Assembly: GCF_036588685.1 (NCBI RefSeq)
Contig: NC_086382.1
Coordinates: 24,614,001-24,678,000, forward strand
Reading direction: 5' to 3'
Origin: Mytilus trossulus
Lineage: Eukaryota
Length of the DNA: 64,000 nt
Shown: positions 7,099 to 55,724 of the stretch, one piece after another
How positions within the stretch are numbered: the stretch's first letter is position 1
Layout: each line of letters begins with the position of its first letter
Translations under genes and position numbers: made by a program
The notes under the pieces: model-generated
Told to the model about the DNA's origin: nothing
Database searches by the model: none
What the model saw: only the letters and a program-made list of their open reading frames with translations

Positions 7099-7470
7099 CA
7101 AATAAAGGCAATAGTAGTATACCGCTGTTGGATAGTCATAAATCGATTTAACTGTAGAAAATATGGGTCACAAACCAAACTGAGGGAAACACATCAACTA
7201 TAAGTGGAACAAAACAGAACAACAGAAACATTGAACTTTTATAAAAACAAACCCGAACATACATAAAAACGGACTATGTGATAACAACTGCTATATTTCT
7301 GACTAAGTACAGGAAATTTTAAGAAAAAATGGTGGGTTGAACCCGATTTTATTTTTAGCCAAACCTCCAGCTTTATGACTTTGTTAAGAATACCGTTAAA
7401 ATGACAAAATTTCGTGACAAGAATACAGTACACATAAAAATGCAATAACATTTAGAACAGAGAAATGCAA
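7099..7470. repeat. Interspersed repeat family D
   Basis: 'agtagtataccgctgtt...gtcataaatcgatt...ggttgaacc' is shared with 33132-33717 and 38189-38520. Confidence 0.8.
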
Positions 7471-9896: not shown

Positions 9897-10163
9897 AATC
9901 TGATGTACAGTAGTTGTCGTTTGTTTATGTAATATATACGTGTTTCTCGTTTCTCGTTTTGTTTATATAGATTAGACCGTTGGTTTTCCCGTTTGAATGG
10001 TTTTACACTAGTAATTTTGGGGCCCTTTATAGCTTGTTGTTCGGTGTGAGCCAAGGCTCCGTGTTGAAGGCCGTACTTTAACCTATAATGGTTTAATTTT
10101 TAAATTGTTATTTGGATGGAGAGTTGTCTCATTGGCACTCACACCACATCTTCCTATATCTAT
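9897..10163 (+). repeat. Interspersed repeat family B, best-preserved copy
   Basis: Multiple copies in the window; related subfamily at 48055-48128(-), 50428-50615 and 61245-61375. Confidence 0.85.
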
Positions 10164-11504: not shown

Positions 11505-11885
11505 ATTATAAGTAGAACATGATATAAATAAATTTGGTGTTATTACTGTCTTCTGATTGGTTAAAATTATGAGTATTATTTTCAATGTTGTCAATTTTGA
11601 TGGCGACACGCCCACTCTGACGTTGATTATTCATACGCCAACATGTGTGTACGCTTGTTATTGTTAATATAAATAATATAAAAAGTTCTTTGAGCCTTAG
11701 TTTTGATAGAAATTTATTTATAATGAATGGCAATGATTCATTTTGATTTTATTGAACCATAAAACTAATTTTTGACTCTTCACATTTTACATAATCCGCT
11801 TCGCGGATTATTCAATGTGAAGAGTCAAAAATTAGTTTTATGGTTCAATAAAATCAAAATAAATAATAGCCATTCATTAAATATT
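11505..11885. mobile_element. Non-autonomous element ending in a ~160-bp hairpin
   Basis: Near-perfect inverted repeat 11721..11879 centred on ccgc-ttc-gcgg; left boundary is approximate. Confidence 0.6.
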
Positions 11886-20187: not shown

Positions 20188-21634
20188 TACGGAAGCGTAT
20201 TAGGGACATTTAAAAAATAAATTTGGCAGTGAAATTTTATTTCAAAGTCGAAATTTTGACATTTCAAATCTCAAAATTTCGACTTTAACTCGAAATTTTA
20301 ACTTTTCTTATCTTGAAATTTTTACTTTTCTTATCTTGAAATTTTTACTTTCTAAAATCTTGAAATTTCGACTTTTTCTTAACTCGAAATTTCGACTTTT
20401 TCTAAACTCGAAATTTCGACTTTTTCTAAACTCGAAATTTCGACTTCTTTTTTACTCGAAATTTCGACTTTTTTAAAACTTTAAATTTCGACTTTTCCTC
20501 AGTATTTATACGTTTGCGATTACTACATTCACAGTCATTTATATCAGCGAGACGGAGAGCCATTTACATCATAAACTTCATAAGCATATTTTAACAAACT
20601 AAACCATTTTAAAGAGATTATTTTAGATAGAAAATCTTGTTCTTGCCAAAGAATAAACAAAATATGTTTCAGGTTCAAATACATATTTCAAGTCTGGACT
20701 TCAGATATGTGTACCAAGACAACCCCGCTATTCCGACACACCTATATTACGACATTCTTTTACTCAACAGTCTAATATATAAAGACAAGGGTTAATAGTT
20801 GTGTTATAAGAATTCAAACTTCCAAAACTAGAAAAAAAACTGAGCAGCTCATTGTTCGTTCTGAATATGCATGGCATTTTTGGCTACTTGATTTACCATT
20901 GTTTAAACAAGGCAAAGTCAGTGACTTGCTATTGGTATACCAAACAGGCCTTTGAAACTGTGATGCTAAATGTTCTCAGACCTAATGATCATATGACAGT
21001 GTTGTGGAAACTAAAACATGGAATATGGAAGGGGGGACTCTGTCAACATGCATGTTCTTTACGAATGATTTCTTCAATATTAAATGCTAATCCATATCTT
21101 AATTTAAGAACAAAACCAGTTTCTGAATATAAATTGCCAAAATGTGTGGATGACGCTTAAATAATTTGCGTCCATGTCTACTCCTTCTAAAATTGTAATA
21201 ACTGTGTTTGAATACTACAAAATTTCGAGATTTCAACAGTCGAAATTTTGAGATCAAAGTCGAAATTACGATTTAAGAAAAAAAAGTCGAAATTTTGAGT
21301 TTACAAAAAGTCGAAATTTTGAGTTTAAAATAAGTCGAAATTTCGAGTTTTAAATAAGTTGAAATTTTGAGTTTAAAATAAGTTGAAATTTCGAGATTCT
21401 AGAAAGTCGAAATTTCAAGATTCTAGAAAGTCAAAATTTCAAGATTTTGGAAAGTCAAAATTTCAAGTTGTAGTCAAAATTTCGGCATTTGAAAAGTCAA
21501 AATTTCGGCATTTGAAAAGTCAAAATTTCAAGTTGTAGTCAAAATTTTAGTGATTTGAAATGTCAAAATTTCGACTTCGAAAAAAAAGTTCATTGCCAAT
21601 TTTATTTTTTCTATGTCCCTAATACGCTTCCGTA
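20188..21634. mobile_element. Non-autonomous DNA transposon, IS3EU-like (TAC...GTA ends, 6-bp TSD)
   Basis: 22-bp perfect TIR tacggaagcgtattagggacat; CCAAAC duplicated at 20182-20187 and 21635-21640; inverted subterminal arrays of tcgaaatttcgacttt. Confidence 0.85.
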
Positions 21635-23211: not shown

Positions 23212-26149
23212 AATTGGCACAAAGATGAACACACGACACAAAAGGACTTCAAGTAACAATGACAACCACTATACGTTATTTTAAAACAATTTCGTTGATC
23301 GATTTCAATGATATATAAATGATTTTAATTATACATGCAGATATCAGAAGAATCTTAATGGACTTTCACCTTTTGACCTTTTAAGATAAGACTGAAACAA
23401 CATCTCAGCTTATCATATTTTCTTTCAAAATATAACACTAAGATGCATTGTTTATACAATTTTTAAACTCTATTTTCAAATAAAATAACAACTTTAAGCA
23501 ATACATGAATCATCTGTACAATAAAACTAATATATTTTAAGAACTGTAGGCAGTACTTTTCTAATAAACTACACGTGAAGACGGTTGTATTATATTGTTA
23601 TGAAACATAATAGTTATCAATATATTAACATATGTTTTAAATTTCAAAAGGACATAATCTGATTCATCATTTTACAGTAATAAGATCTAATAAGTCTAAT
23701 CTGGTATGTATTTTTTCTCAGTTAAATATATATATAGTCGTTTGTGTTAAATCACAAAAAGTGTATGTGATATCGCGTTCCTTCCACCACAAGGATTTCA
23801 AGACCTATCTGTTAGGTATTTACACGTAGATTTTGCCTGTATGAGTTTCGTTTGCAATGTAAATGTTCATCTCATAACCCGCAGCCAGAAGTGGTAATTC
23901 AATTACAACCTGTATTTATTTATGTCCTGTACACATTTGTCCGTACGAGTATCAGGATTGTTTACTATTGCACGTGTTAAATGATGTGTTTATTCTCTTT
24001 TTTGTGTCCCCCTCTTCCCCTCAGTTGTAGCGGAGGTGACTTTAAGTTTGACCCTTGTCCGTCCGTAGAGTAAACCCTCAATGACATATTATTATAGTTC
24101 CCAAATTATTTATAATTCTTTTAGTATACCATAAAGTTCGCTCTTTATAAAATGGTTAATCTAAATTTCAACGAACATATGTAACGCTGGAATATGCAGT
24201 ACGAATTACTGCAAATTATTGATTCGGAAAGAAAGTTATTTGATGTACTGACACACAACATTGTTGATAATTCTGCAACAGTTAAAAATTGCGATATCAC
24301 ACAGAAATTGAGTACAAGAACATTCCTCGTGTTTCAAACAATGGCTTGACGCTGATATAGATCGCAGTAAAATCACAAAGGAAAGGGATAGCAACATAAT
24401 ATACAAATATCAGACCTGCAAGTTGGTCATTTCTTTTCGTTATATCGTGAAAGTCTATACATACATTGTAGCTTTCTGAAAATATAATTCTTTTGTTATC
24501 CCACTCTATATCATAGAATGTAAGAACATACAACAAATCCACTTACATGTATAATTAAACTTAGTGCTTGCACAAAATTGTATCATACTTGAGAACTCCC
24601 GCTAGAAAGCATATGCCAAAAAGCAATATTCTCTCTTTGATATTTACTATATTCTTTAATGTCTGGCTACCATTTTACATTTCTGTAGGATATTTTCATT
24701 TTATGCTGTTTCAGGACTTACACCAAGAGGTCGTCGATCAAATGAAATAAGAAACCCTGCATGTATCATGATTTTCGATAGCATGGTCAAATTGCTGGAA
24801 ACCCCCTCCTCTTGAAAACTACCATTCTACATTAACAAAACTATCTTAGTGTAAATTAGTTCACTCATTCGGGCTAACGCCCTCGCGGTATATCCTATAC
24901 TTGTATTTGCTCAATCTACATTAAGGGAGAGACTGTAATTGAAATAAAATAGTATAATACATAAATGTCAGTAATAATGGTGAACGATGCTATTGAAATG
25001 ATTAATATCGGAATCAATGTGTTACTTTTATTTTCAGTTAGTACAATGTACAATAAAAAATAATGGCAATTATTTTGAATCAAAAGTCAAGTTAATTTGT
25101 TACGATGTTGATTAATTTTTTACCACGCACACGCAATAGCGACGCTCTTTATAATTGTCCGTGTAGTAGCCACTCGCAGAGAGAGAAAAAACAGGCATTA
25201 CAATCCATTTCATCATAATATACTAAGTCTTATATTTGGGCTATTTCAATCGATCACGCTTCTAAAAGAAGTGGGAAAAGATACCCAGGGGGCAACAAAA
25301 AACTATGTAAGTTCTAGATATATAAATAATCGAGTATTGTCACATTTTTAAAAGATACATGTACATGAAAGTGCACAATAGAATAAATCCACGTTATATA
25401 CACGACATCAAGGCAAACCAGAATGTTTTCTGAACTTGATAAACATGTCATAATAAGTGTTTACTATTCTTTATTTATATTTTTTCAAATGCCAAATAGA
25501 TTAAGAAGTTGAATGTAATTCTGTTTTAAGCTCAGAAGGCATCACTTGATGATTTGATGGTCGCTAATTAAGTTTACTGGCTACGCGTTTGCTTACAGTA
25601 CTGTATATGTTAAACAACTGCCTACACCTTGTGGCTAATGGTTAATGACGCCCCCGTCACTAATATATCATAGACAGGAATAAAACTTTAAACATTATAA
25701 TTTCTACGTGTACCCACATCTCAATTTAAATGGAACTCTGAACAATTATATAACATCTAGTAACGAAAACAGCTGCATAGTAAGTAAATATGAATTAACA
25801 CTAGATAAGTAACGACTATAGCTGGTAAGTTTTTGTTTCTTCACACTGCTAATTGATATTAATCAAAATTTGTAAGCTTGATTAATTATTAAGGTATATG
25901 AGACAACTATCCACCAGAGTTAAAACTTAGTTTAAACAGATGTAGTTAGCATCAAATATTGTTTTTAACCATGTGCATGTGTTTCGTTATTCGAATGTTA
26001 TTGTATCAAACGGTACCAGTTTACTTAGAGCGATATAGTAAAACTAAATAAAATACCATAATATGTTAAAGAAGCAAAAGAACTCACAGTAAAAAAAATG
26101 CTTCACAAAAGGCTTATGCTTGTACTTTAATTTAAGCATATATTTAACT

Positions 26150-26250
26150 CGTTTTTTATTCGAGCGTCACCTATGAGTCTTTAATTTGTAGACGAAACGA
26201 GCGTCTGGTGCAAATACAAACTTTCAATCCTGGAATCTGTGATTAGTTCA
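26150..26250 (+). mobile_element. Retrozyme fragment with degenerate hammerhead
   Basis: gagcgtca-cctatga-gtct...agac-gaaacgagcgtc-tggtg; the CUGAUGA core is mutated. Confidence 0.75.
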
Positions 26251-26371
26251 TGTTGAAGCTACAAATTAGATTCATTTGTTGTGCATTATGTACTTTGCTT
26301 AAACTAAAGCAGAATAGACACATATCCAGGAATTAATTATTGTTGGTTGCTTTAAAACTATACTAGTATAA

Positions 26372-27583: not shown

Positions 27584-29272
27584 GTAAGCCACATATGTAT
27601 GTTAAGTAAACAGGTATTCATCAAGGAATAACTGATGCAGACAATGCAGGCTTGAATTGCCCTTAAGTTGCGAAGTACTGATATATCTAATCTTACTTTC
27701 ATAACTTCTGAAATCATTCTGAAATATGTAGGGGATGGAACAGTGTCCTTGGTGAATGTTGTTTGAAAATTGTATAAACATTTTAAAAATCGATATCATA
27801 TACCTACTTTACACAACAAGGTCGGTACAACGATTGATAGATAAACAGTTCCCGCGGGAACTATCCTTTCAGCATGTTCAGAAGCAAGACTTAGTGTTCT
27901 TGTAACATATACTTGAATTATCAATACTTTCCAAAATGACGGAACAAAAGCAGTTGTACGGTATACGAAACAAGACAATAGCCCAATGACACACAACAAA
28001 AAAAAATAAGTCTGCAAGAATCAGCATACGAGTCTAGATCGGTAATGAATAGAAAAACGCTCTGCTCTTATTATATCAATCACCCTATGCCGAAGACAAT
28101 AATACAAAGACACGACAAGTACGTAATTAGAACTTAAAGGTTTCATTGCTTGTTTATAATGAGGACTCGTGAATTATAAGAGAGAAGTAGTACAAGTATG
28201 TATAAGGAATGCTTAGTTTGCCTATAAATTATATGGAATTTTTTATCTCTTCAATGTAGTGCATTAAGCTGCATGCATCTCCCTCAAAGACCGTTAGACT
28301 GACAACAACTTCATTTTTTTCAGGAAACTTCACTTAGATTTCTTTTGATAAAAAGCGTCAAGAAATCTTATTTAAAGACAACTTATCTACTACTACTATT
28401 ACTTGATGATATCAAGCCATTATAAACCTTACTCTTAGCACTTAAGACATTAAGATAATGGTTTTCTCTTGACACGTTTTGTGTAAATATTCTGCAAAAA
28501 GCACTTCAAAATGTATACATGAAGTATATCAACCTTTTTTATATAATGTATATAAATAACTGGAGATGTGTTTACACTTTAGCACATCAAACTATAAGAT
28601 ATCTAGTACAAATTAAAACTTACATTCCGGAAATCCGGGGTTGGACTTGTTTTAATAATTAAATAGATTTGATAATAGTTGAATTTATGTTAGATTTTGT
28701 CGAATTTGTTACTAGCATGTTTTAAGGGGGAAAGTTGGTATGTACAATGGATGTATGTGGTGAAAGATTGAAGAAATCTGTGGATTTTTTAATACATTTT
28801 GTGTTCATATAAATATATATAATGTATATGTATTGTCAGCTGAATCTTAGATTGCATTGTTTTCTTTCCAGAAAATGCGAAACAATAGAATATAGGGAAG
28901 TGAAAAAGTCACAGAGTGAAGAAATACTGCACGGAAAAGATAAGCTGATTGTTTGACGCAATTAATTAAGTTTCCAGTTTCCTGTTTGCGGGAAAAGACA
29001 ACTTGTAAACAACAAAGTTTTAAGAAAAGTGCAGTATTGATATTTTATATATTATATATTCACTCTAAGTTCAATGACTTTTCCAGAATAACGATCCGAT
29101 ATCTTTTCATTATTCAGCGACTTTATATTGATTATCAGAAAAAAAGTGCGAGACATATATGATTGACCGTGCATCTCGGGATTTATCGTTAAGTTAAGGT
29201 GTGTTTCTACAGGAAAACAATAATTATGACAATACAGTTTTAAACTAAAGTGGTTAAGGATTTTGCATAAAA

Positions 29273-30334
29273 ATGTCGACCACCTCAAGTTTCACAGTAT
29301 CAAACCCGATTGATATTACTAGTAACGGAAGCTCTCAAGAGGCTTCCTATTGTACTACCGAGGAAATTGTTTCGTTAAGGCGACATCATCGTGTTAAAGA
29401 TGGAATTAAACGTTTGACAGAAAAGTATGATTCTATTGGTAACTTTATTCCAATGACTGGACGACCGCCGAGTATAGCATCTTTGAAAAGTGCAAAAGAA
29501 GAAAGAGAAAGACTTGCTTCTTTTGGATCTAATGGGTCAACTAGTATCAGTCAAAGCCCATCACGAACTTCATTTGCTGAAGGGATTAGCGAGCATGATT
29601 TGCTGCAAGTTGAAATGTTTTACCGGAGTCATAAGACTGATGTTCATGTATGTCCAAGTTTAGCTAATTTGTACTTTGGAAAAGTTGTTGGAAACAAAGA
29701 CAAATGGAAATTCGCAATGACCGGAATACCTGTTCTGGTACTCGACACAGGAAAACACCAGCGTGACCGGAAGTTACATGTTATTCTTGCCGAAAAAGGT
29801 ACAGGATTCGTGCTTTGGAAAGATAAAGTAGATCAACTTACAGCATATAAAGCTCCTCATGCCAATTTCCACACGTTGCACCTGTCAACAGATCATACTC
29901 GTTTAGCAGGATTAAGTTTTGACGATAAAAAGGGGGCTGCAGAATTTGTCAAAAAATATTTGGAATACACATCTGATCCAGATGATGAACTACTCAAACT
30001 GAGTAAAGGAAAGAAGAAAAAAGTGAAAACTGAGAAACCTAAAAAATTCAAACCACCGAAGAAAACGGAAATTTCACAGCCATGTTGTTTTGTTCATGTG
30101 ACTAAGCTCGAAAATTCTGCTATGGAGAACTTACATAATAATAAAAGTGTCATATCTGGTCCAGTAGCATTCGAAAATTTACTGGATGTACACGATAAAA
30201 GAGAAAAAGACAGTTTAGAAGTTTCGAGTCTTCTTGGAAGTAAACTCACTATAAACAGTGATATAAGTTCTACCGTGTCTGAAGATCCAACCTCGGTTTC
30301 AAGTTATCAGTCAGAAAAGGGAATTCCGGACTGA
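29273..30334 (+). CDS. EVH1/WH1-like domain protein with basic region and CRIB-like motif (353 aa; possibly related to Drosophila MESR3)
   Basis: Long non-repetitive ORF in AT-rich DNA; LY...W...G.PVL.LD...LW...Y....FH......AGLSF pattern typical of WH1 folds; Lys-rich tract followed by ISQPCCFVHV. Confidence 0.85.
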   Translation: MSTTSSFTVSNPIDITSNGSSQEASYCTTEEIVSLRRHHRVKDGIKRLTEKYDSIGNFIPMTGRPPSIASLKSAKEERERLASFGSNGSTSISQSPSRTSFAEGISEHDLLQVEMFYRSHKTDVHVCPSLANLYFGKVVGNKDKWKFAMTGIPVLVLDTGKHQRDRKLHVILAEKGTGFVLWKDKVDQLTAYKAPHANFHTLHLSTDHTRLAGLSFDDKKGAAEFVKKYLEYTSDPDDELLKLSKGKKKKVKTEKPKKFKPPKKTEISQPCCFVHVTKLENSAMENLHNNKSVISGPVAFENLLDVHDKREKDSLEVSSLLGSKLTINSDISSTVSEDPTSVSSYQSEKGIPD

Positions 30335-30597
30335 ATACAATATTTTTTGGAAATTCTTGTTTGAATGGATTCTATGCAAAGTGCCAATGTTATTTGTTAA
30401 GTATATATGTGATTTCGTTTACAGTAGTTATAATTTGCAATTGTTTAATGTAACACAGTGCTTTTATTTTATATAAAATACCCCCATTTTAATATATTTC
30501 TCATAATTTTTTTCCGACTTGCCTAATTTGACATTATTTTACATAGTGTTAGCAGCTACGATTTGTCATTCCCTTCCTGTTTGCACCTCGCCCTGAC

Positions 30598-31777: not shown

Positions 31778-31900
31778 AATGCTCTTCAACTTTGTACTTG
31801 TTTGGCTTTATAAATATTTTGATACGAGCGTCACTGGTGAGTCTTATGTAGACGAAACGCGCGTACTAAATTATTATCCTGGTACCTTTGATAACTAATT
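31778..31900 (+). mobile_element. Retrozyme fragment with degenerate hammerhead
   Basis: gagcgtca-ctggtga-gtct-tatgt-agac-gaaacgcgcgta; core A6 mutated and the 3' strand of stem I lost. Confidence 0.75.
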
Positions 31901-33131
31901 AAACTAGCCATGATTTTCAAATAGTTCAGAATGAGTTTAATGCATACATATCTGTATTTCTTGCAAAACCAATGTTCTTAAAATTTACATTAAAAGCGCA
32001 AAAAACTATTTCCTAGCAGCTGTTATGTCCTATCCATGTAGCATTACTATTGGGTGAAAAGAATTCAATTTTAAACCATTAACGGATTAAAAGTATTTAG
32101 TAAAACCCAAATTATACACGTTCTACAATCATATTATTTCACAATTGAAGTGTTTCAGTACTTTTTTCCTGGTGTATGGATAAAACAAACGACAGTTGTT
32201 AATTTAACTACAAATAAAAATGTATAAATCCATGGCCAGTGGCGTTACAAATTGACAGACAGACAAATGTGTCGTAAACAAAATAAAGACGAACAGCATC
32301 AACTCAAAATACTTGACAGAATCTAACGGATGATCATCAAAAAACACCCTGATAGACGTTAACAAAGGGTACTTGTGATGTATTCTTTTCACTGTTCGCA
32401 TCGTGTTTACCTGACAGTTATATATATATCTATATATATATTGTAAATCGAGTTTAAAATTTAAAATTTGAGCTTTAATGATTGGTTGATTTGAAGAACC
32501 CATACATTAGCAAATGTCTTTAAATGAATAAAAAGACAGAGCAAGGAAGAAGTTAAAACGTTATCGTTTCAATAGAACATCAAATCGTCAAAAGAGGGAC
32601 GAAAGATACTAGAGAGACATTCCAACCATTATGATACTTTACCGTTGCCCCCGATGGTATCATTAGCTTATTTGGCAGTACTTCGGTACCGACATGATTT
32701 TTAAAAAAAAACTGTTCTTAAAAAGTAAAGTATACTAGTAACAAAAAAAATAAAACGAACTCCGAGGAAAATTCATAACGGAAAGTCCGTAGTCAAATGG
32801 TATAGTCGAAAGCTCAAACACATCAAACGAACGAAACCCAACTGTCATATTCCTGACATGGTACATGCATTTTCTTGTGAAGACAATAATTGATTACACC
32901 TGGTTTTAAAGTTGGCTCAGTTATTTGTCACTTTTTAAATTTATGAGTTATCCAGAAACGAAAGTTTCAACTCCATCATTCAAAATTTACCTTTCATGCT
33001 ATCGCTATTATTGTTATGCCTTTATATTATTGTCTAATATCATAATAGCTCTTTAACTGTTTTAGCTTCCATACATTTTTCACTTTCAAAAAGTCAATAA
33101 ACTCATAGATACAAGGATTGAAACACAGCTG

Positions 33132-33717
33132 TAAATAAAGACAACAGTAGTATACCGCTGTTCAAAAGTAATAAATCGACTGAGAGAAAACCCATCCGCG
33201 TTACAAACTAAAACCGGGGGAAACACGTCAAAAGCAAGAGGAAAACAACGAAACAACGGAACACTAAAAGAGGGACGAAAGATACCAAAGGGACAGTCAA
33301 ACTCATAAATCTAAAACAAACTGACAACGCCATGGCTAAAAATGAAAAAGACAAACAGACAAACAATCAACATAGAAAACCAAAGAATAAACAACACGAA
33401 CCCCACAAAAAACAAAGGGTTATCTCAGGTGCTCCGGAAGGGTGAGCAAATCCTGCTCCACATGTGACACCCGTCGTGTTGCTTATGTGATATCAAATGC
33501 GGTACATAGTCTTATTCGGTAGGTCACATTCATGAAAGGGAAGGGGATTGTAGTTACGACGTAAGGAACATATCCGATATATATATATATATAAAGTACG
33601 ACAATGCAAAATACATTAAAACGAACTATTAACTAACAACTGCAATAATCCTGACTTTGTACAGAACACTTTAAAAAGAAATGGAAGGTTGAACCTAGTT
33701 TTGTGGCTAGCAAAACA
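33132..33717. repeat. Family D copy interrupted by a family C insertion (~33268-33592)
   Basis: The two flanks join to give a sequence colinear with the uninterrupted D copy at 38189-38520. Confidence 0.75.
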
Positions 33718-33821
33718 CTAGTTAGCAAAACCTCACAAACACAGACCTGTAAGCGTTTAATATGATGAAGATATATCAAGAAATAAACTCATCATAGATA
33801 CCAGGACTAAATTTAGTACAT

Positions 33822-33865
33822 ACGCCAGACGCGCGTTTCGTCTACAAAAGACTCATCAGTGACGC
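33822..33865 (-). ncRNA. Type I hammerhead ribozyme, intact core (inside retrozyme fragment 33783-33900)
   Basis: Minus strand: gcgtca CTGATGA gtct tttgt agac GAAA c gcgc g TC tggcgt; stems I, II and III all pair. Confidence 0.88.
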
Positions 33866-33934
33866 TCGAATCCAAAAAAGTTGAAAAGGCCAAATAAATG
33901 CGATGTGGTCGCTTGAAGATCATACAGTGTTGTT

Positions 33935-34091
33935 TCACAGCACTTGGTCAATATTGATGCTCACAGCACGTGGTCAATATTGATGCTCACAGCACGTGGT
34001 CAATATTGATGCTCACAGCACGTGGTCAATATTGATGCTCACAGCACGTGGTCAATATTAATGCTCACAGCACGTGGTCAATATTGATGCT
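33935..34091. repeat. 26-bp tandem repeat, 6 copies
   Basis: Unit tcacagcacgtggtcaatattgatgc. Confidence 0.95.
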
Positions 34092-35120: not shown

Positions 35121-36525
35121 GTAGTATCTTTCTGTAATAACATTCACCAAAACCCCGCGGAAATCTCACATGCGTAGGTGCGTTCTAAAAGTCATGTACT
35201 TTTGTACAACAAAGTTTACATTAAAAATTATATAATTGTCCCGTATAAAAGCTATTGGAGAAACAATTGTTTTAATAAAAATATAAATCTTTGTAAGATC
35301 TAGTTCAAATATTTAGTTTTTCACTTGCTTTCAATCACGATATAATTTTCGAGACGTTTTTTTCAAACACAACCAAATCACCTACCTTGACAGCATTTTG
35401 TCCAATCGTGACAGAAAGGATTTTCGAGCATGCGTATTCCGTTGCCATAGTTAAGCGTCCTTAAGTTCAAAGGGCACAAACCGAAACTATAGCGACTACG
35501 TCGGAAAAACAACAGAAATTATTTAATGTAAACAAAGGGAAAATAAAATATAGAGTCGTAAAACAACCAGACAAAACCATGATCGAAATAAAAATAGACC
35601 AACAGAAAACAAGTCTACAAAATACTACCCAGAAAACTAAACAATGAGTTACCCAAAACCCTACCAAAACACGTGATCTCTGTGAAGCTCTCTACTGGCA
35701 CATGTAATATAATTATGGCATTCAAGTCTATGTACTTGGCAAGTTAACAATCGAAGATACTATTCATTTGCTGATGTCGAAGTCTAGTTATAGAAGGCAG
35801 CACAGTTGAAATATTTGTGTGGACATCAAAGAAAAGTAAAATCACAAAAAAAATCCGAGGAATATTCTAAAAGGAAAATCCCTTATCAAATGGCAAAACG
35901 GATTCATTTATATTCGTTGGTACAATTTTTCATGGATTAAGCAAAACTTTCATGCTTGGGGATATTAGATTTAGTGGTTTTGCCGGAGCTAGCATAAAAG
36001 CCTATAGAAAAGGAGTATGACCACGCAGGGTTAAAAACGGCCCTGTTTCAGAAATTGACGAAATTATTGCAGAAGGATCATTTACTAATCCGACTCAGTT
36101 TACTTCATAAAAAGATAACCATTAGACTTGTAACTGTGATTGATTAACTTTCCAGGGCGTCAGAAAAGACTAAGGTACAACAGTATTATAGCCATTTGCT
36201 AGTAACGTTTAAAATAGTTTTCATTAACGTTCTAGTAATTTTAAACAATTTCCCAAACGAACTAGTATTATAATATTCTGAAATATTTTTTCCACTGGAA
36301 CAAATATTATTCACTTCAGAAGTAGGTGTTAAGGCATCTGTGAAACCCACTCATAAATAAGTGATTCAACACATGTAGTTGCCGCCCATATTTAAAATGT
36401 TAGCAGAATAAATAGTTGTGGGCTCAGTTTTTTTTAGACAAATATAACCTTGTAGTGACTGAGCTATAATGGAAATATGAGGCATGCACTTTGTCTTTTT
36501 TTTCTAAATTATGATACCTGATTAT

Positions 36526-37510: not shown

Positions 37511-37636
37511 TAGTCCAAGATTACTCTGACGTCCGACAGCTGTTTTGCCAGACAAGCTTGGGACGGCTGCCGTGGGTCCCACGGCCCCAGCTTGTCTGGC
37601 AAAACAGCTGTCGGACGTCAGAGTAATCTCGGACTA
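37511..37636. mobile_element. 126-bp palindromic MITE, TAG...CTA ends, 9-bp TSD (AcademH-like)
   Basis: 48-bp arms with one mismatch; GACCATGTT at 37502-37510 and 37637-37645. Confidence 0.85.
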
Positions 37637-38188
37637 GACCATGTTGGACTCTTTAGAACAGTAGAACGCAGTTCTACTTTGACACTAATGATAGCATTCT
37701 TAATTTCACTGATCATCACAATTATAATGGAAGAGACTAATAGAAATTTAATACACAAAAAAAAATCAACTGTGAAAAAGTTTGAAAAAACAAATTAGGG
37801 CATGTCAAAATTTGTCTATTCCTTTGATGTGTTTGAGTTTTTGATTTTGTCTTTTGATAAGGGACTTTACGTTTTGAATTTTGCTCGCAGTTCAGTATTT
37901 GTGTGATTTACTTTTATAAGTACGATCGAACAGATTCTAACCAGAACTGTTGTTCTTATAACTGATATTTACACAAACTTTGAAGATTTGATATCTTTAA
38001 ATTCAGATTGAATCCACCATTTGCTACATATGGAAATGCCTATGTCAAGTCAGAATGTGTGACAGTTGTTTTCCATTCATTTGATGTGTATGAGCTTTTT
38101 TTTGCAAAAAAAATAATGGACTTTCCAATTTGAACTTTCCTTGAAGTTTGGTATATTTTTAACTTTAACTTTTAAATGATAGTACGAA

Positions 38189-39080: not shown

Positions 39081-39835
39081 AGATATCTCGCTGAAGTAAG
39101 CGAGCACTAGGAGAAAAGTTCAGAGATTTGGGGCGAGCAGTAGAAGATTTGGATAGTCGTGCACACATGTACATCTGTACATAACCCAGTAATGTGCAGA
39201 TTTCAGTATTAGAACATTTCTTGTTACTTGTGGAGAATCGATAGATTTAAAGATGGTAATAAGAAATACTAAGCTAAAGTCAATACATCAGTGTCATGTG
39301 CAAACCCAAGAATGAACGAAACCCTAGTAAGATAGTTCATAGAAATGTGTACTGAGTCGGTGAAGTAAACTTCGGACTAAGACATTTCTGAAAAGCACAA
39401 CGAAAGAACCAGAACACGAATATTCATGGACTGCAGCGACGTCGACATGTTAGCAACTGCATGTGACAAAACGATTCATATAGTCGATAGATATTGGAAA
39501 AATGTAAAAGAAGTTCGTATGACGAGCAGTATAAAGCCAAGTTCCGAACTGTTGTTATTCTCTCATAGCAAAAGTAAATCAGAGTGCATCCTGGATCTTC
39601 AGAAGATGTCAAGCAGCACTCATTGAGGGCATTGTTGGTTCGTAGTAACATGGTTCACGTGAAACAGTTGAACAGTTCGCCTATTCAACTTCTTAATGTC
39701 TTCGTTATTAAGAGGTGAGATTTCTACAAGGTAACTCTTTTAAAATTTGGTTAAGTTATTTTCAGAAATATCTTATTTAACGAGTGACAATCTGAAACGG
39801 AATATCTATTACTAGGCGGTGGAATTATGGAAATT

Positions 39836-40271
39836 TCACTGATGAGTCTTTTTGAGACGAAACGCGCGTCTGGCGTAATTGTAAAATTTTCATCCTGGTA
39901 TCTATGATGAGTTTATTTGCAACCACTGGGTCGAGGCCACTGCTGGTGGAGATTTATTTCCCCGAGGGTATCACAAGCCCAGTAGTCAGCACTTCTGTGT
40001 TGACTTCAGTTTTCATTGATATGTTCATAACTATAAATTAACTGTTAACAAAACTTTGAATTTTTGAAAAACTAAGGCTTTTCTACCTCAGGAATAGATT
40101 ACCTTAGCTGTATTTGGCAAAACTTCTAGTAATTTTTGGTCCTCAATGCTCTTCCACTTCGTATTTTATTTGGCCCTTTTTACATTTTTTGATTCGAGCG
40201 TCACTGATGAGTCTTTTTGAGACGAACGCGCGTCTGGCGTAATTATGAAATGTTCATCCTGGTATCTATGA
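39836..40271 (+). mobile_element. Retrozyme-like element: ~365-bp unit bounded by two hammerhead-containing direct repeats
   Basis: CTGATGA at 39839 and 40204; ~70-bp direct repeats; predicted GUC cleavage after 39870 and 40234. Confidence 0.88.
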
Positions 40272-41180
40272 TTATTTTATTTTTATTAGAGTTTGGTGCC
40301 TTCGAAATTATTATATTAGTGTTAAGATACCACCCGATGCCTACTGAAAGAACTGTGCTTATTGGGAACTGTCGCGGTACCGTCATTAGTTTGTGTATAA
40401 GCGAATTTGAGAGTGTGTAAGAATAAATTTATAAAATGAAGCATTCAATTCTTAACTAAAGATAAATAATGTCTCACGGTATACATTTTAATTTGTTTTG
40501 CCAATTGTTTTAAGTATTTTTGGTTTTTATTTTTAAAATCTATTTGAATATACGAAAACAACGAACCGACATACTGGCAAATAAAGAAAACAGTACTCGG
40601 CATACTGCTGTTCACATGTCATATAATTGACATACTTTATCATTTTCAAAATTATCCTAGCAAAAGTTTATATCTTTTCATTATAATTTAAAGTTTTTTT
40701 CAGTTGTATGTGCTCGAATGATGTTGCATGCATGACTATCTATTTTTAAATGATAAAGTATTTTAAATATTGTATGTATGTATGTAATTAAGCTTACTAC
40801 TTTTTCAGTATTTGCTGTGTAATAAAGATAATGTGATGTGTATACACAACATGACATTGTTTAATTGTATAATGTGTAGTTCCTGCAAGCAGGAGAACTA
40901 TTTGTTTGAAAATATATAAATGTTTGCCGCAGGTTTGCAGTATACACGCAGCAGGTCTGCTGCAAACACGCAGGTTAAAATTAATCTGCATAAAATTGTT
41001 TGCTGCAGATCTGCCGCGAACACTCATTTGCATATAATTTTTTTCAGCAGGTCTCATTTGCATGGTAAATTGTTTGCAGCAGACCTGCAGCGTGTTTGCA
41101 GTAAAACATGCTGCAAACTCAGACCTGCAGTAACTATTTGCAGAAGGCTGACTTTTTCAGTAAGGGGTTATAATCTTTAC

Positions 41181-43784: not shown

Positions 43785-43940
43785 GTAAGCACTTTTTACT
43801 GTGAAATTGTAGCTCTATGTACATCATGTACATGTAGTATATCAATCCATTCAAGATAAACATTCAACTTAGTGCATTTGTATTTTGTTTACAACTCTCT
43901 ACATTGTACATTGTGATTGTAGCTTCCAGTTTCACAAACA

Positions 43941-45104
43941 ATGGAGAAAGATATCTTAGATGGAGTTGAACATGTTGAAAGGGACAGCAAAGAAAGTCTG
44001 AATTCTAAATCTTTTGATACCTTTGGACCAGATGAAAATTTTGTGCCTACAGTTTTAGACTTTATTAACAATGAAACACCTGAAAGTAATATTAAAAGTG
44101 ATAAAAATGAAACAAATTTGTCACAAAATACAGAAAATGACCAAGCTGACAGAAATACAATTTTAGAAGCTTGTGAGACAAAACTAAACCAATCGACATC
44201 CTCTGGTAAAAATGAGAATGTGGTAAAATCTACAGAGGATTTAGAATCTAAACCACACACATTGTTGACAAATGATAAAACAATTCTGGATCATGCCAGT
44301 GTCAATGTTAATGATGAAGATGAAACTTGCAAAACATGTTCCAAAGAGACTATTTCTTCATTGACAAATGAAATAACAATCCTTGATCATGCCAGTATCA
44401 ATGTTGATGACCAGGATCAAACTTCCAAAACAATTTTAAAAGGCACTATTCAACCTATTTCTTCATGTTCAGAAAATGAGAGTTTTGGTTCACTCCAGAT
44501 AAATGTTGATGACAGAATTTTGTCAAGTGAAAAACTTCAAAAAGCTGTGGATAAAATTATTGAAGAAGATATGGAAATTGATTCATCTGATATCGATGTT
44601 CCCCATGTTCAAGAGAAGACCAATCCATGGGAACTCTTAGAAGACTCTTCCTTGTGTTCTAATGAGGTCACATATATTAGTGAAAAAGACAAAGTTGACA
44701 AAATTGAAGTTACAGATGACATTTATGATATTGATAATGATGTTCATCAAGAAACAACGCATACACCTTCCTTACAAATGTTAAGAAAAGATCAAAAGAA
44801 AGAAAGGTCAATCTTTCAAGGTCAAGATGACAGCTGTCAGGCTGCTGGAGACAAAACTAGTGAGGATTTATCTTTAAAGCAGGTTAAATGTATAGACACA
44901 AAATTGAAACCTGTTTCTGAATTAGGAATCAAGAAACTAGGACTTTCAAAGCAATCAAAAACTTCTGAAGACGTAACTGAAAAGCTAAGAAAAGAAAAGC
45001 TTTCTCATACTGTAGATAAGAAGAACAAAAATCAGAAAGTTGTTTATATTTACAGTAAGGAGCTGATTCAGATTTGTGATCAGATGCAGAAAATACCTTG
45101 TAGA
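43941..45104 (+). CDS. HDAC8: HDAC8 coding exon 1 (long acidic N-terminal extension + VYIYS...IPCR)
   Basis: C-terminal VYIYSKELIQICDQMQKIPCR matches HDAC8 [21 protein letters not shown]; phase-0 donor AGA|gtaagt; start ATG inferred. Confidence 0.85.
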
Positions 45105-45610
45105 GTAAGTAGAATGTACAAATGTATACAGGTATAGGGGTAAATTCAGTAAAAAATCTCCTATTTACTTTAATGCTATTCTATGTCATATATGTATGAA
45201 AATAAATTTATACCTGATTTACCTTTAGAAATTAGAAACTTTCATATATCATTCATGAAACTACAAATGTATCCCTATCTTTTGCAACAATACAAACATA
45301 GGGTCATGCAGCATTTTTGAGCATTCACATGGCTTTTTTTACAAACAATGTAGATTCACACTGAATTCCTATACTGACCACATTTACCATGTTTACTTTA
45401 AACCCTGTAGGAAAAAAAATAGTACATTCAGCATTTTTTTTTTTTTTTTTTCAACTCTAGTTTTGATCCATCTATCCAAAATTATTTATTACAAACATTA
45501 TCTACCAATCAGAAGAGCACATGACTTCAGTTTAACACATAAAGCTCTCCCCCAAATGGGCGGTCCCTGATGACGTATATTTATTTACTGAATTTACCCA
45601 TATACATGGT

Positions 45611-50917: not shown

Positions 50918-51975
50918 GTTAGTACCGTGTAAAACAGTTGTTCTCTGTATTTTAGATAGATTTTATTATTTTTTTGTACTTGAGAACTGAATGCTTCTTT
51001 TTGTAACTTCATTGGGGTGTAAAAGCGTTGACTGAAGTACATTTTGTATGAAGCATGGGAGTGCATGGTCAATGCTTTTACAACCTTTTGAAGTTACAAA
51101 AAGAAGCATTCCATACTTATAATTACATTTTTTAGCTTGGTTAATCATGAACACACGATATAATTTTTTTAATTTAATTCACCTGTGGCTGTGCACTTAT
51201 TGTGGGACCTCATGTTATCATGAATGATAAGTTTTATTGAGTGATGCAATTGGTTAAGGAATAACATGTGATGTGCAGGTATCCAATCAGAACAACATAT
51301 CATAATGAAACATACATCTAATGTAATTATTAATAGATATAAAATAAATTACAGTATAACTTTTCTTCAGAAAAATTATCAACATCTAATCTTTTTGAAA
51401 TCATTGGTAATGTTAGGCAGAACAATATTAATGTATTTAGTATCATCTGCTAAGATGTGGTATAATTTTTTTTCTAATAGTGCAGGGATTTCAAATTTTT
51501 AAGCAGAAGCCTGTCCTTTTTCCCATTTGCATAGCCGACCCAATACTCATTTCAAGTAAATAAGAATGCTTGGAAGAATTTTCTCCTTCCTGGTCTCAAT
51601 TTGAAATGAGAAGAATTCAGAATTGTTTAAGTACTTGATTTGAGTGGTTTTATCAATATTCCCTTTTTTTGTATTTGAAAGAAGAAAATAAAAAAGAATA
51701 TTCCATTGTATTTTGGGAGAATTTCGACAAAAAGCTTGCATGGATTTTTTTCCATGCATATATAATTAAAACAATACATGCAATTAAGTTTTAAGAAATT
51801 ATTCAAACCTGATTCTCCTATAAGGATATCTGGTTATATTTAGCTGTCTTTCGACACCCAACTATATACAGCTTTTTGTTACAATATTAAAAGTCAGGGT
51901 TAGTTTGTCCTAAGTAAGAAATATTTGGATCTGGTACATTACAAAGTCGTCAATCCATGTTCATTTTTCTTCCAG

Positions 51976-52088
51976 AGACCATGCTTCAGGGTTTTGTTAC
52001 ATTAATGACATTGTACTTGGTATACTTAAGCTGAAGGAAAAGTATGATAGGATACTGTATGTTGACCTTGACCTACACCATGGTGATG
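51976..52088 (+). CDS. HDAC8: HDAC8 coding exon 5 ([11 protein letters not shown]...[11 protein letters not shown])
   Basis: Zn-ligand motif DLDLHHGD; 113 nt. Confidence 0.97.
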
Positions 52089-52716
52089 GTAAGAATTTTT
52101 CAAAGTATTGAAAACAATTTCTGTTATGGTATATAGCTAGAGAAAGAAATTATATTGTTATATATACACAAATGCAACAAGTAAAATTGAGAATGGAAAT
52201 GGGGAATGTAACAAAGAGACAACAACCCGACCATAGAAAAAACAACAGCCGAAGGTCACCAACAGGTCTTCAATGTAATTCCTATCTATTTGTACATGTT
52301 GTAAATAAGCAATGATGTAATGCCCCAAACACATTTTTAGTATACTGTATGCCAGCAAATCTGATCATTATAAGAAAGCCTTGAACACATAAAAGTAGAT
52401 GTTTCATTTTTATACCAGGTGGACAATGTCAGGTAAATATATAAATGTCCGGAATATATATATGACTGTTTTGGAAACCATGGTCTGCTGGATTTGTATT
52501 TTACCTTGAGCTGTTTCAGTGGTACCATAATACTGCTTAAATTTCCATAGAAATGACACAGAATATTTTTTACCAAAAAAACAAAAGTCATGTAGACAGA
52601 ACTTTATCCACATATAAAAATACATGCTTTGTTGCAACTGCAACAAAATGCATATCTTTTGAAATGTTCATAGATCAGTAAAAGCTTTGAATGTATTTTA
52701 TTTATTTTGTTTGTAG

Positions 52717-53286: not shown

Positions 53287-53482
53287 TTCTACCTCAGGCA
53301 TAGATTACTTTAGCTGTATTTGGCAAAAATTTTAGGAATTTCGGTCCTCAATGCTCTTTAACTTTACTTTATTTGGCCTTTTAACTTTTTTGGATTCGAG
53401 CGTCACTGATGAGTCTTTTGTAGACAAAACATGCGTCTGGCGTTTATACAAAATTTAGTCCTGGAATCTATGATGAGTTTAT
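53287..53482 (+). mobile_element. Retrozyme fragment in HDAC8 intron 6, hammerhead with GAAA->AAAA
   Basis: gagcgtca CTGATGA gtct tttgt agac AAAA catgcgtc tggcgt; flanks match 40080-40270. Confidence 0.85.
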
Positions 53483-53647
53483 TTATATATATATATTTGA
53501 AGCTGAACATTAAGCAGTCATTGATTATCTTTTCTGTTGAGGTTCAAATAATATGTTCAGTTCATGAATGAGATCTGCAGTGGTTTTCTGTATGATTTTC
53601 TTGTTATTTGTAAGTTATTGATTAGATTGGATGACTATATTTTGTAG

Positions 53648-54525: not shown

Positions 54526-55294
54526 ATTTGAGATATATGGTAAATATGTAAATATAATTTTAATATGACGTGCTTCTTTTGCTTTATGAATATGTTATCA
54601 GTAAACCAATGCCATGAATGCTCTAAATCCAATATTACTTTTTTTGCACATTCATATATTGACTTCTGCAGAATCATGAATTTTATCAAATTGGCATGCA
54701 TTTATTAACTTAAAACACTTCTCAACTCATAAATGATGCACATGTTGTTACTAATTCATTTATTATGACTTTCATGACTGTAATGTGTTGCATTCTGAAA
54801 TTGACATATTTGACCTAAGTAAGACCATCATTCATGTTGGATTTTCAAAACTCCTTCCTCTGAAAAATCACAGTGCCAGCTGTTTGCCTTTTTACAAACA
54901 AAAAGTGGAGGTTCATGGGTTCATGGAAGAGCCTACACAATTGCTTAACCCTTCTACACATAGGACATCTAGATATCCTTAATTGTCCTAATCAGAATTG
55001 AAATAATTGATGCAAGCTATCGCTCGGGCAAAAATAATCACAAATTTAATGCATACCCATGTTGAAACTGCAATAAAGTATAGCTTGCATCAATTATTTC
55101 TTAAATAGAGGAGATGTTGTTTATACATCAACAACACGGCAACCCAACACAAAATTTATATGACAGAAAAGTGTTCAAAATTAATTTCTATCAATAGTTC
55201 AATAAAGGAATAGAAATATTCATGCAGATTTATTAATCTCTTTGGTAAAGAAAATGTATGTTTTTTTTACAATAAGATGTTTTTTACATTTCAG

Positions 55295-55467
55295 AATTCT
55301 GAATAAGGTGAAAGAAACATTCCGTCCTGAGGTTGTCGTCTGCCAATGTGGAGCAGACGGATTAGCTGGTGATCCAATGGAATCATTTAATTTAACACAC
55401 AAAGGACTGGGAAAGTGTCTGTACTTCCTTTTACAGTGGAATCTTCCAACATTGGTTTTAGGGGGAG
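55295..55467 (+). CDS. HDAC8: HDAC8 coding exon 8 (ILNKVKETFRP...GADGLAGDPM...LVLGG)
   Basis: Third Zn-ligand Asp (GAD); DPM Met typical of HDAC8; 173 nt. Confidence 0.96.
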
Positions 55468-55724
55468 GTATGTACTTCCTGTTACAGTGGAATCTTCCAA
55501 CATTGGTTTTAGGGGAGGTATGTACTTCCTGTTACAGTGGAATCTTCCAACATTGGTTTTAGGGGGAGGTATGTACTTCCTGTTACAGTGGAATCTTCCA
55601 ACATTGGTTTTAGGGGGAGGTATGTACTTCCTGTTACAGTGGAATCTTCCAACATTGGTTTTAGGGGAGGTATGTACTTTTGTTACATTGGAATCATTCA
55701 ACATTAGTTGTAGGGGAAGGTAAA
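55420..55724 (+). repeat. 50/51-bp tandem repeat (6 units) spanning the exon 8 3' end and donor
   Basis: Unit tgtacttcctgttacagtggaatcttccaacattggttttagg(g)ggaggta. Confidence 0.95.

What the first reader, a model, noticed from the sequence alone, without database searches (positions are those of the whole stretch)
33822..33865. Intact type I hammerhead ribozyme on the minus strand
All conserved core nucleotides are present. Stem I is gcgtca/tggcgt, stem II is gtct/agac with a tttgt loop, and stem III is only 2 bp closed by a palindromic GCGC loop. Predicted cleavage is after GUC (between + coordinates 33828 and 33827). A short stem III with a palindromic loop is the known hallmark of metazoan retrozyme/Penelope hammerheads that cleave efficiently as dimers, so this copy might be activated in trans by retrozyme RNAs from other loci (inference).
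Basis: partly seen in the sequence, partly recalled or inferred. Interest (0 to 1): 0.7.

Follow-up and report, generated by a model that had tools for sequence, protein, structure and literature searches.

The report
Stranded fragment of known mussel retrozyme
The ribozyme motif is real but ordinary: it is one of more than 18,000 near-identical copies in this genome, inside a 118-base leftover of an already published self-cutting RNA repeat of mussels, and it stops where most copies stop, just before a predicted RNA hairpin shared with Naiad jumping genes, whose enzyme likely made it.

Summary
The hammerhead at 33822-33865 (-) is there as described (Rfam RF00163, 32.5 bits; cut at 33828/33827). 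It is not special. The exact core occurs 18,401 times in this genome. It lies in a 118-bp piece (33781-33898) of a ~360-bp tandem unit that matches the published Mytilus galloprovincialis non-LTR retrozyme at 44 of 45 ribozyme letters. The piece is young (117/118 identical to another copy), so an intact core is expected. It is 5'-truncated, has one ribozyme and lacks the rest of the unit, so it cannot give a circular monomer. The dimer reading is only partly right: the 8-nt palindrome could pair two copies, but the published mussel repeat cleaves as a monomer, and no transcript of this copy was shown. The more interesting point is its 3' end, 47 nt past the cut: only 311 of 2,257 copies with this end motif continue. 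That end lies 6 nt before a hairpin that also precedes the ORF of a Naiad retrotransposon, whose copies (6 of 6) stop at the same place. This scan noted the Naiad link before on other DNA of this genome; I retested it and it held.

The parts
33781..33898 (-). 118-bp fragment of the ~360-bp non-LTR retrozyme unit: 5'-truncated, with the family's usual 3' end
   Evidence: Similarity to other copies is confined to these bases; 117/118 identical to the copy in L002; in public contigs other copies run on as unit sequence past 33898 and as mixed flanks past 33781
33822..33865 (-). Type I hammerhead ribozyme core (stem I 6 bp, stem II 4 bp, stem III 2 bp)
   Evidence: Sequence; Rfam RF00163 32.5 bits, E 3.4e-4
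33827..33828 (-). Predicted cleavage site after GUC
   Evidence: Position of C17 in the Rfam alignment and sequence; cleavage not tested
33829..33836 (-). Self-complementary octamer ACGCGCGU forming stem III and its loop; could pair between two molecules
   Evidence: Sequence; duplex -13.3 kcal/mol
33804..33873 (-). Predicted longer stem I: GGAUU (33873-33869) with AGUCC (33808-33804) beyond an internal loop
   Evidence: Folding of 33798-33878, free and with the hammerhead enforced; prediction only
33781..33827 (-). 47 nt after the cut site, ending at the family's common 3' end, 6 nt short of the Naiad-shared hairpin, which this copy lacks
39836..40282 (+). 1.2-unit copy of the same repeat with two hammerheads 364 bp apart; the first is cut into at stem I, the second lacks one A of GAAA; same 3' end
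53287..53485 (+). 199-bp fragment of the same repeat, core broken at three places; same 3' end
31798..31892 (+). Fragment of the same repeat with the 3' sequence of the 354-bp subfamily
26143..26251 (+). Older, more diverged fragment of the same repeat; same 3' end

Best explanation
This is a 118-base, 5'-truncated copy of the known mussel non-LTR retrozyme, with one complete hammerhead motif but without the rest of the repeat, likely left by a reverse transcription that began at the family's fixed start point and stopped early, and likely a dead end. Steps: (1) shown: the family is a ~354-364-bp tandem unit with one hammerhead per unit. (2) published for M. galloprovincialis: tandem copies are transcribed, self-cleave and accumulate as circles. 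(3) shown: genomic copies end 42-52 nt past the cut, mostly 6 nt before a hairpin, and begin at scattered places. (4) shown: a Naiad Penelope-like element of this genome has a homologous hairpin before its ORF and its copies end 6 nt before it. (5) inferred: the Naiad protein binds that hairpin in retrozyme RNA, nicks AT-rich DNA and copies from just 5' of the hairpin, through the joined cut site, so the template was a circle or an uncleaved multimer. (6) inferred: this copy stopped after 118 nt; with one ribozyme and no hairpin it can neither make a circle nor be copied again. It would likely cleave on its own if a transcript ran through it on the minus strand.
For: 18,401 exact core matches. 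Tandem units in L024 and L028. 44 of 45 ribozyme letters and 23 of 24 downstream letters agree with the published Rtz 375 nt, compared by eye. 3' ends at unit position 110-123 in 22 of 29 distinct chain ends among loci picked by the middle of the unit, 27 of 34 among loci picked by the ribozyme, 4 of 5 in the window. Genome-wide only 311 of 2,257 copies with the 31-nt end motif go on for 8 more unit letters, while 1,182 of 2,044 go on across the cut site, near the roughly 64% that mutation alone gives. Naiad: N-terminal GIY-YIG, CxC, DKA, RT-like C-terminal half; 6 of 6 copies with a visible 3' end stop 6 nt before the hairpin; hairpin pairs kept in 96.7% of 182 cells, three pairs changed on both sides between retrozyme and Naiad. 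Internal start of reverse transcription was shown in vitro for another Penelope-like element (PMC11167929).
Against: No cleavage, binding or reverse-transcription assay was run. The three two-sided changes come from one retrozyme-Naiad comparison, not independent events, and the count of such pairs did not beat the shuffles (249 of 500). Only one Naiad family and part of one canonical Penelope-like family were read in full, out of 149 GIY-YIG matches, so another helper is not excluded. Pfam did not call an RT domain in the Naiad protein; that rests on a pairwise match, E 2e-11. No target-site duplication at this copy, and only 1 of 53 insertions had one of 10 nt or more. The hammerhead fold is 7.4 kcal/mol above a predicted misfold. 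The species was not established; the match to the mussel element is by sequence.
Confidence: 0.85

Rival explanations
1. One reading: the ribozyme is weak alone and is switched on in trans when abundant retrozyme RNA pairs with it through the GCGC palindrome, cutting a host transcript.
For: Palindrome duplex -13.3 kcal/mol; double hammerhead -29.5 against -26.2 for two misfolded monomers. Retrozyme circles are abundant in mussel tissues (PMC7229834). The monomer has a predicted misfold.
Against: A cloned mussel repeat cleaves as a monomer at about 0.1 per min. A non-hammerhead duplex is more stable still, -34.6. The coding exons recognised in the window are on the plus strand, and 0 of 128 minus-strand frames scanned matched Pfam. 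Nothing sets this copy apart from thousands of others.
Confidence: 0.05
2. The copy has been taken up by the host as a fixed RNA-processing site, for example to end or destabilise a minus-strand transcript.
For: The core and all stems are complete. Some isolated hammerheads are kept in amniotes (stated in PMC7229834).
Against: One difference in 118 from another copy, so it is too young to show selection; 74 of 105 copies are equally complete; it sits in a patchwork of repeats.
Confidence: 0.03
3. Same fragment, different maker: a canonical, ribozyme-bearing Penelope-like element or DNA-level recombination among tandem units produced it, and the hairpin shared with the Naiad is a relic.
For: [quoted passage not shown] Canonical elements with a C-terminal GIY-YIG are in this genome. 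Long homogeneous arrays near the start of C1 suggest local DNA-level expansion.
Against: Recombination does not give one fixed 3' end. The two canonical-element stretches read show no hairpin and no hammerhead core (L129, L130). Retrozyme and Naiad ends fall at the same distance from the hairpin.
Confidence: 0.07

Closest known systems
Mytilus galloprovincialis non-LTR retrozyme (Cervera and de la Pena 2020, PMC7229834, parts 1-4 of 6 read; sequence of Rtz 375 nt in PMC4918200 Additional file 11, read as PDF text)
   Same: Near-identical hammerhead and downstream sequence; unit of 354-364 bp, within the published 350-390 bp; tandem and dispersed copies; low GC.
   Different: This copy is a 118-bp fragment with one ribozyme. 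The count here is at least 18,401 against about 5,000 published for another assembly. The parts read do not describe the fixed 3' end or the Naiad-shared hairpin; the supplement could not be read.
Rfam Hammerhead_1 (RF00163)
   Same: Full-length match; the model consensus has the same ACGCGCGU stem III.
   Different: 32.5 bits, under the gathering score of 34.
Dimer-dependent hammerheads of amphibian satellites and minimal hammerheads of Penelope-like elements (PMC7229834; passages of PMC7761336)
   Same: Type I, short stem III, palindromic loop.
   Different: Those have a 1-bp or absent stem III, or (axolotl Amex2, 2-bp stem III) a weakened stem II; this one has 2 bp in stem III, a 4-bp stem II, and the mussel repeat was shown to cleave alone. 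It is not in the terminal repeat of an autonomous element.
Naiad Penelope-like elements (Craig et al. 2021, PMC8557442, section 6 and search passages read) and internal initiation by Anolis Poseidon (PMC11167929, parts 1-2 of 4 read)
   Same: 5'-truncated insertions with a set 3' end inside the RNA; the Naiad in L121-L128 shares the hairpin and the end position.
   Different: Naiads encode their enzyme and lack a canonical hammerhead; the retrozyme encodes nothing. Internal initiation was shown for a Poseidon, not for a Naiad.

Membership tests
Type I hammerhead ribozyme | Conserved core CUGANGA, GAAA, UH | tested here: met
Type I hammerhead ribozyme | Three helices with helix I open | tested here: met
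   6, 4 and 2 bp by sequence; the fold scores -5.7 kcal/mol but is not the lowest
Type I hammerhead ribozyme | Rfam RF00163 gathering score of 34 bits | tested here: inconclusive
   32.5 bits, E 3.4e-4, whole model; the sister copy at 39833-39879 passes with 35.7. The cut-off is a curation threshold, not a catalytic criterion
Type I hammerhead ribozyme | Paired changes in the stems across copies | tested here: inconclusive
   105 copies are too alike; changes look like decay
Type I hammerhead ribozyme | Self-cleavage in Mg2+ | not testable with these tools
   Published for a cloned mussel repeat, about 0.1 per min; not for this copy
Mussel non-LTR retrozyme family | Sequence identity with the published element | tested here: met
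   44 of 45 and 23 of 24 letters, by eye on PDF text
Mussel non-LTR retrozyme family | Family forms tandem repeats of 350-390 bp with one type I hammerhead each | tested here: met
   L024 seven units, L028; 354-355-bp arrays
Active retrozyme locus (this copy) | Two hammerheads in tandem around a whole unit | tested here: not met
   One ribozyme, 118 of about 360 bp; so filed as a fragment, not an active locus
Mussel non-LTR retrozyme family | Target-site duplication, when present longer than 4 bp | tested here: inconclusive
   Best flank match here 7 nt, reached by 22% of shuffled pairs; 1 of 53 insertions has a clear 19-nt one
Mussel non-LTR retrozyme family | Expression as linear and circular RNA | not testable with these tools
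   Only contigs of runs guessed to be RNA were on offer
Dimer-dependent amphibian or Penelope hammerhead | Helix III of one base pair or absent | tested here: not met
   Two pairs plus tetraloop, the invertebrate type of PMC7229834
Dimer-dependent amphibian or Penelope hammerhead | Located in the pseudo-LTR of an autonomous element | tested here: not met
   No long ORF nearby; only short 3' Naiad fragments flank it
Naiad (for the proposed helper, L121-L128) | N-terminal GIY-YIG, CxC motif, DKA motif, C-terminal RT, no canonical hammerhead | tested here: met
   GIY-YIG 138-228 of 1011 aa, CDC at 443, ADKAS and YIDD, RT half matches a canonical element, E 2e-11; no hammerhead pattern inside the elements; features from PMC8557442

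The most novel reading that the evidence does not exclude
Mussel retrozymes are copied by Naiad retrotransposons, which carry no hammerhead themselves: a shared hairpin recruits the Naiad enzyme and sets the start of copying 6 nt before it, on a circular or uncleaved RNA. This fragment is a plain product of that reaction. It would name the helper that the 2020 review said could not be deduced, and give a minimal RNA signal to test.
Probability: 0.7. Interest if true: 0.6.

Novelty: already known. Interest (0 to 1): 0.33.

Why it matters
The ribozyme itself matters little: it is one young copy among more than 18,000 of a published element. Its boundaries are useful. If the shared hairpin and shared end point mean what they seem to, they identify the enzyme that spreads the abundant circular RNAs of mussels and a short signal that tells it where to begin. 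The review PMC7761336 left the helper open, and the 2026 preprint ties frog retrozymes to ribozyme-bearing Penelope-like elements, not to Naiads. That part was noted earlier by this scan on other DNA and does not depend on this copy.

Tried and rejected
Expression of this locus: no holder is on record as RNA. In four runs guessed to be RNA the repeat is deeply covered, which reflects the whole family, and the unique flank has almost no cover; these are contigs from other strains or species (40 differences in 1,286 bases of the nearby ORF in X3), so this says nothing either way. Empty site: four more runs gave no contig across the locus and no joint that skips 33781-33898; no verdict. Target-site duplication: none above chance. 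A longer element at the 5' side: only an 11-nt, 10/11 match to the unit 15 nt upstream, treated as chance. A host gene on the minus strand: 0 of 128 frames matched Pfam; 7 of the 135 frames of 52 aa or more were left out as tandem-repeat or HDAC-overlap frames; short exons and non-coding transcripts are not covered. Pile-up of 5' ends at the cut site, as a cleaved linear template would give: none of 53 insertions starts at unit positions 68-74, and the genome-wide ratio shows no large drop; the test is blunt because the seven added letters are CpG-rich. Naiad-retrozyme chimera in L126: it is a Naiad inserted into a retrozyme, not a template switch. PDB search with the Naiad protein: 0 matches. 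One search used a structure one column out of register and was redone. The supplement of PMC7229834 and the text of PMC5785218 could not be read; the supplement of PMC8557442 (Naiad sequences) was not opened and those of the bioRxiv preprint are closed, so the Naiad family or the shared end may be recorded there.

Full report
Observation. Rfam matches it over the whole Hammerhead_1 model at 32.5 bits, E 3.4e-4, and finds two more in the window at 39833-39879 and 40198-40240. The cut would fall between 33828 and 33827. Folding programs prefer another structure (-13.1 kcal/mol, z -0.74) to the hammerhead (-5.7); the gap of 7.4 to 8.2 kcal/mol holds for all four lengths tried. A longer stem I is predicted out to 33873 and 33804.

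What it belongs to. The genome is 1.30 Gb in 541 contigs, and a 141-nt query gave 1,588 candidates, 40 scored. The exact core pattern has 18,401 matches, the reversed control none. Against 29 other fetched loci the similarity around the ribozyme is confined to about 33898-33781. In several loci this piece recurs every 361-370 bp; L024 has seven units. A second subfamily has a 354-bp unit, 83% identical, in long arrays. The window copy holds only the first 118 positions of the unit as numbered here and differs from the copy in L002 by one letter. The published M. galloprovincialis retrozyme of 375 nt (PMC4918200 Additional file 11, read as scrambled PDF text) agrees at 44 of 45 letters up to the cut region and 23 of 24 further down, compared by eye. 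PMC7229834 (parts 1-4 of 6 read) reports about 5,000 such ribozymes in 350-390-bp repeats, cleavage of a cloned repeat at about 0.1 per min, and abundant circles. I infer a Mytilus-like host from this match; the species was not established.

Intact is not special. Among 105 distinct copies with a 32-nt core (found with at most 4 changes, 1 of 106 dropped for length), 74 keep the catalytic letters, and changes fall on core, stems and loops at similar rates. At 1% divergence 88% of copies would keep 13 core letters.

The dimer idea. For it: the octamer pairs with itself at -13.3 kcal/mol, and a double hammerhead scores -29.5 against -26.2 for two misfolded monomers. Against it: a non-hammerhead duplex scores -34.6; the paper calls a 2-bp stem III with tetraloop the invertebrate type and finds the need for dimers in amphibians; the review says most invertebrate motifs cleave as monomers (passages). 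One axolotl motif with a 2-bp stem III also gains from dimers but has a weaker stem II, so a gain from pairing is not excluded here. Any such effect needs a minus-strand transcript. The exons recognised in the window are on the plus strand: a weak WH1-like ORF at 29258-30334 and two histone deacetylase exons at 51959-52096 and 55293-55475. None of 128 minus-strand frames scanned, out of 135, matched Pfam.

The ends. Copies start at scattered places and stop at one. After dropping chains that reach a locus edge, duplicates and the window's own locus, the 3' end lies at unit position 110-123 in 22 of 29 chain ends from loci picked by the middle of the unit, 27 of 34 from loci picked by the ribozyme, 2 of 3 from the pattern loci and 4 of 5 in the window; four of the seven misses in the first set are alignment breaks at the unit junction, at least two of them at long T runs. 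Genome-wide, 2,257 copies carry the last 31 letters exactly and 311 continue for 8 more. Across the cut site 1,182 of 2,044 continue for 7 letters, close to the 64% that the per-site rates give. Public contigs agree: loose ends at 33781 are mixed (agreement 0.39-0.44 in all four runs and the two listed), loose ends at 33898 are unit sequence (0.66-0.93 in the six rows listed). So the 3' end of this copy is the family's natural end and its 5' end is a private truncation. A fixed 3' end with ragged 5' ends is the mark of target-primed reverse transcription (established knowledge). Since the end lies 47 nt past the cut and copies span the cut, the template had that bond closed: a circle or an uncleaved multimer (inference). 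Only 1 of 53 insertions shows a clear target-site duplication, and this one does not.

The helper. Earlier notes of this scan pointed to a hairpin shared with Naiad elements; I tested this. Loci found by the GIY-YIG family alone include elements with the domain at the N-terminus. Eight such stretches read in full (of ten fetched) hold ORFs of 1011 aa (924 in L128) with GIY-YIG first, DKA and YIDD, a CxC motif and a C-terminal half like the RT of a canonical element, the features given for Naiads; Pfam itself did not call the RT. Just before their start codon lies a hairpin homologous to the one that follows the retrozyme's end point. On 14 hand-picked rows of 58 found, its 13 pairs hold in 96.7% of cells, against at most 49.5% when slid, with three pairs changed on both sides between retrozyme and Naiad; those are one comparison, not many events. 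All 6 Naiad copies whose 3' end is visible stop 6 nt before the stem, the same distance as the retrozyme. The two canonical-element stretches show no such hairpin. For a Poseidon element, copying was shown to start inside the RNA at a stem-loop, at the ends seen in the genome, and not to need ribozyme cleavage (PMC11167929, parts 1-2 of 4). I infer that the Naiad enzyme makes these copies. The window copy ends before the hairpin, as the model requires, and so lacks the signal.

In print or not. The element and its ribozyme are published. Three searches found no paper linking mussel retrozymes to Naiads. The closest is the 2026 preprint (parts 1-3 of 5 read), which links Xenopus retrozymes to pseudo-LTRs of Penelope-like elements and includes no mollusc. 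PMC8557442 (section 6 and search passages) says only that retrozymes may exploit such elements. Supplements of PMC7229834, PMC8557442 and the preprint were not seen and could bear on this.

Verdict. A real but ordinary ribozyme motif: a young, stranded fragment of a published element, class already known, interest 0.33. The part worth pursuing is the Naiad link (probability 0.7, interest 0.6 if true), which this scan had already noted on other DNA and which does not depend on this copy.

Noticed in passing
window 29258-30334 (+): 358-aa ORF with a weak WH1 match (E 0.0014, under cut-off). Contigs of four runs cover it, two end at 30485, and three carry other sequence upstream of 28870, as from a further exon.
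   Followed up: partly
window 51959-52096 and 55293-55475 (+): Histone deacetylase exons; HDAC8-like by recall only. The end of the second is repeated in tandem in 50-51-bp units, 55417-55679.
   Followed up: no
window 43923-45137 (+): 404-aa acidic ORF with no Pfam match over cut-off.
   Followed up: no
window 33935-34090: Six 26-bp tandem units 37 bp upstream of the fragment on the minus strand, each with two palindromes.
   Followed up: no
window 32737-32917, 33634-33716, 37992-38173, 35832-35898, 7282-7379: Short pieces 74-82% like the last part of the ORF and 3' region of the Naiad in L122; pieces like the 3' region of the canonical element in L129 at 9897-10163 and elsewhere.
   Followed up: partly
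window 33265-33580: Another abundant repeat, next to a (TA)n run, whose copies seem to end at 33265 (mixed loose ends) and run on past 33580.
   Followed up: no
L126:856-5307: A Naiad inserted inside a retrozyme array; retrozyme sequence resumes on both sides.
   Followed up: yes
G000:C1:113382-284873: Long homogeneous arrays of the 354-355-bp subfamily near the contig start, one with over 40 units, in both orientations.
   Followed up: no
L057, L060 (unit junction): Long T or T/C runs have grown inside the unit just upstream of the ribozyme.
   Followed up: no
L016: The one clear target-site duplication, 19 nt, among 53 insertions.
   Followed up: partly
window 20188-21634, 11716-11884, 37537-37612: A fold-back element with 24-bp subrepeats in both arms, a 71-bp inverted repeat and a GC-rich hairpin.
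   Followed up: no
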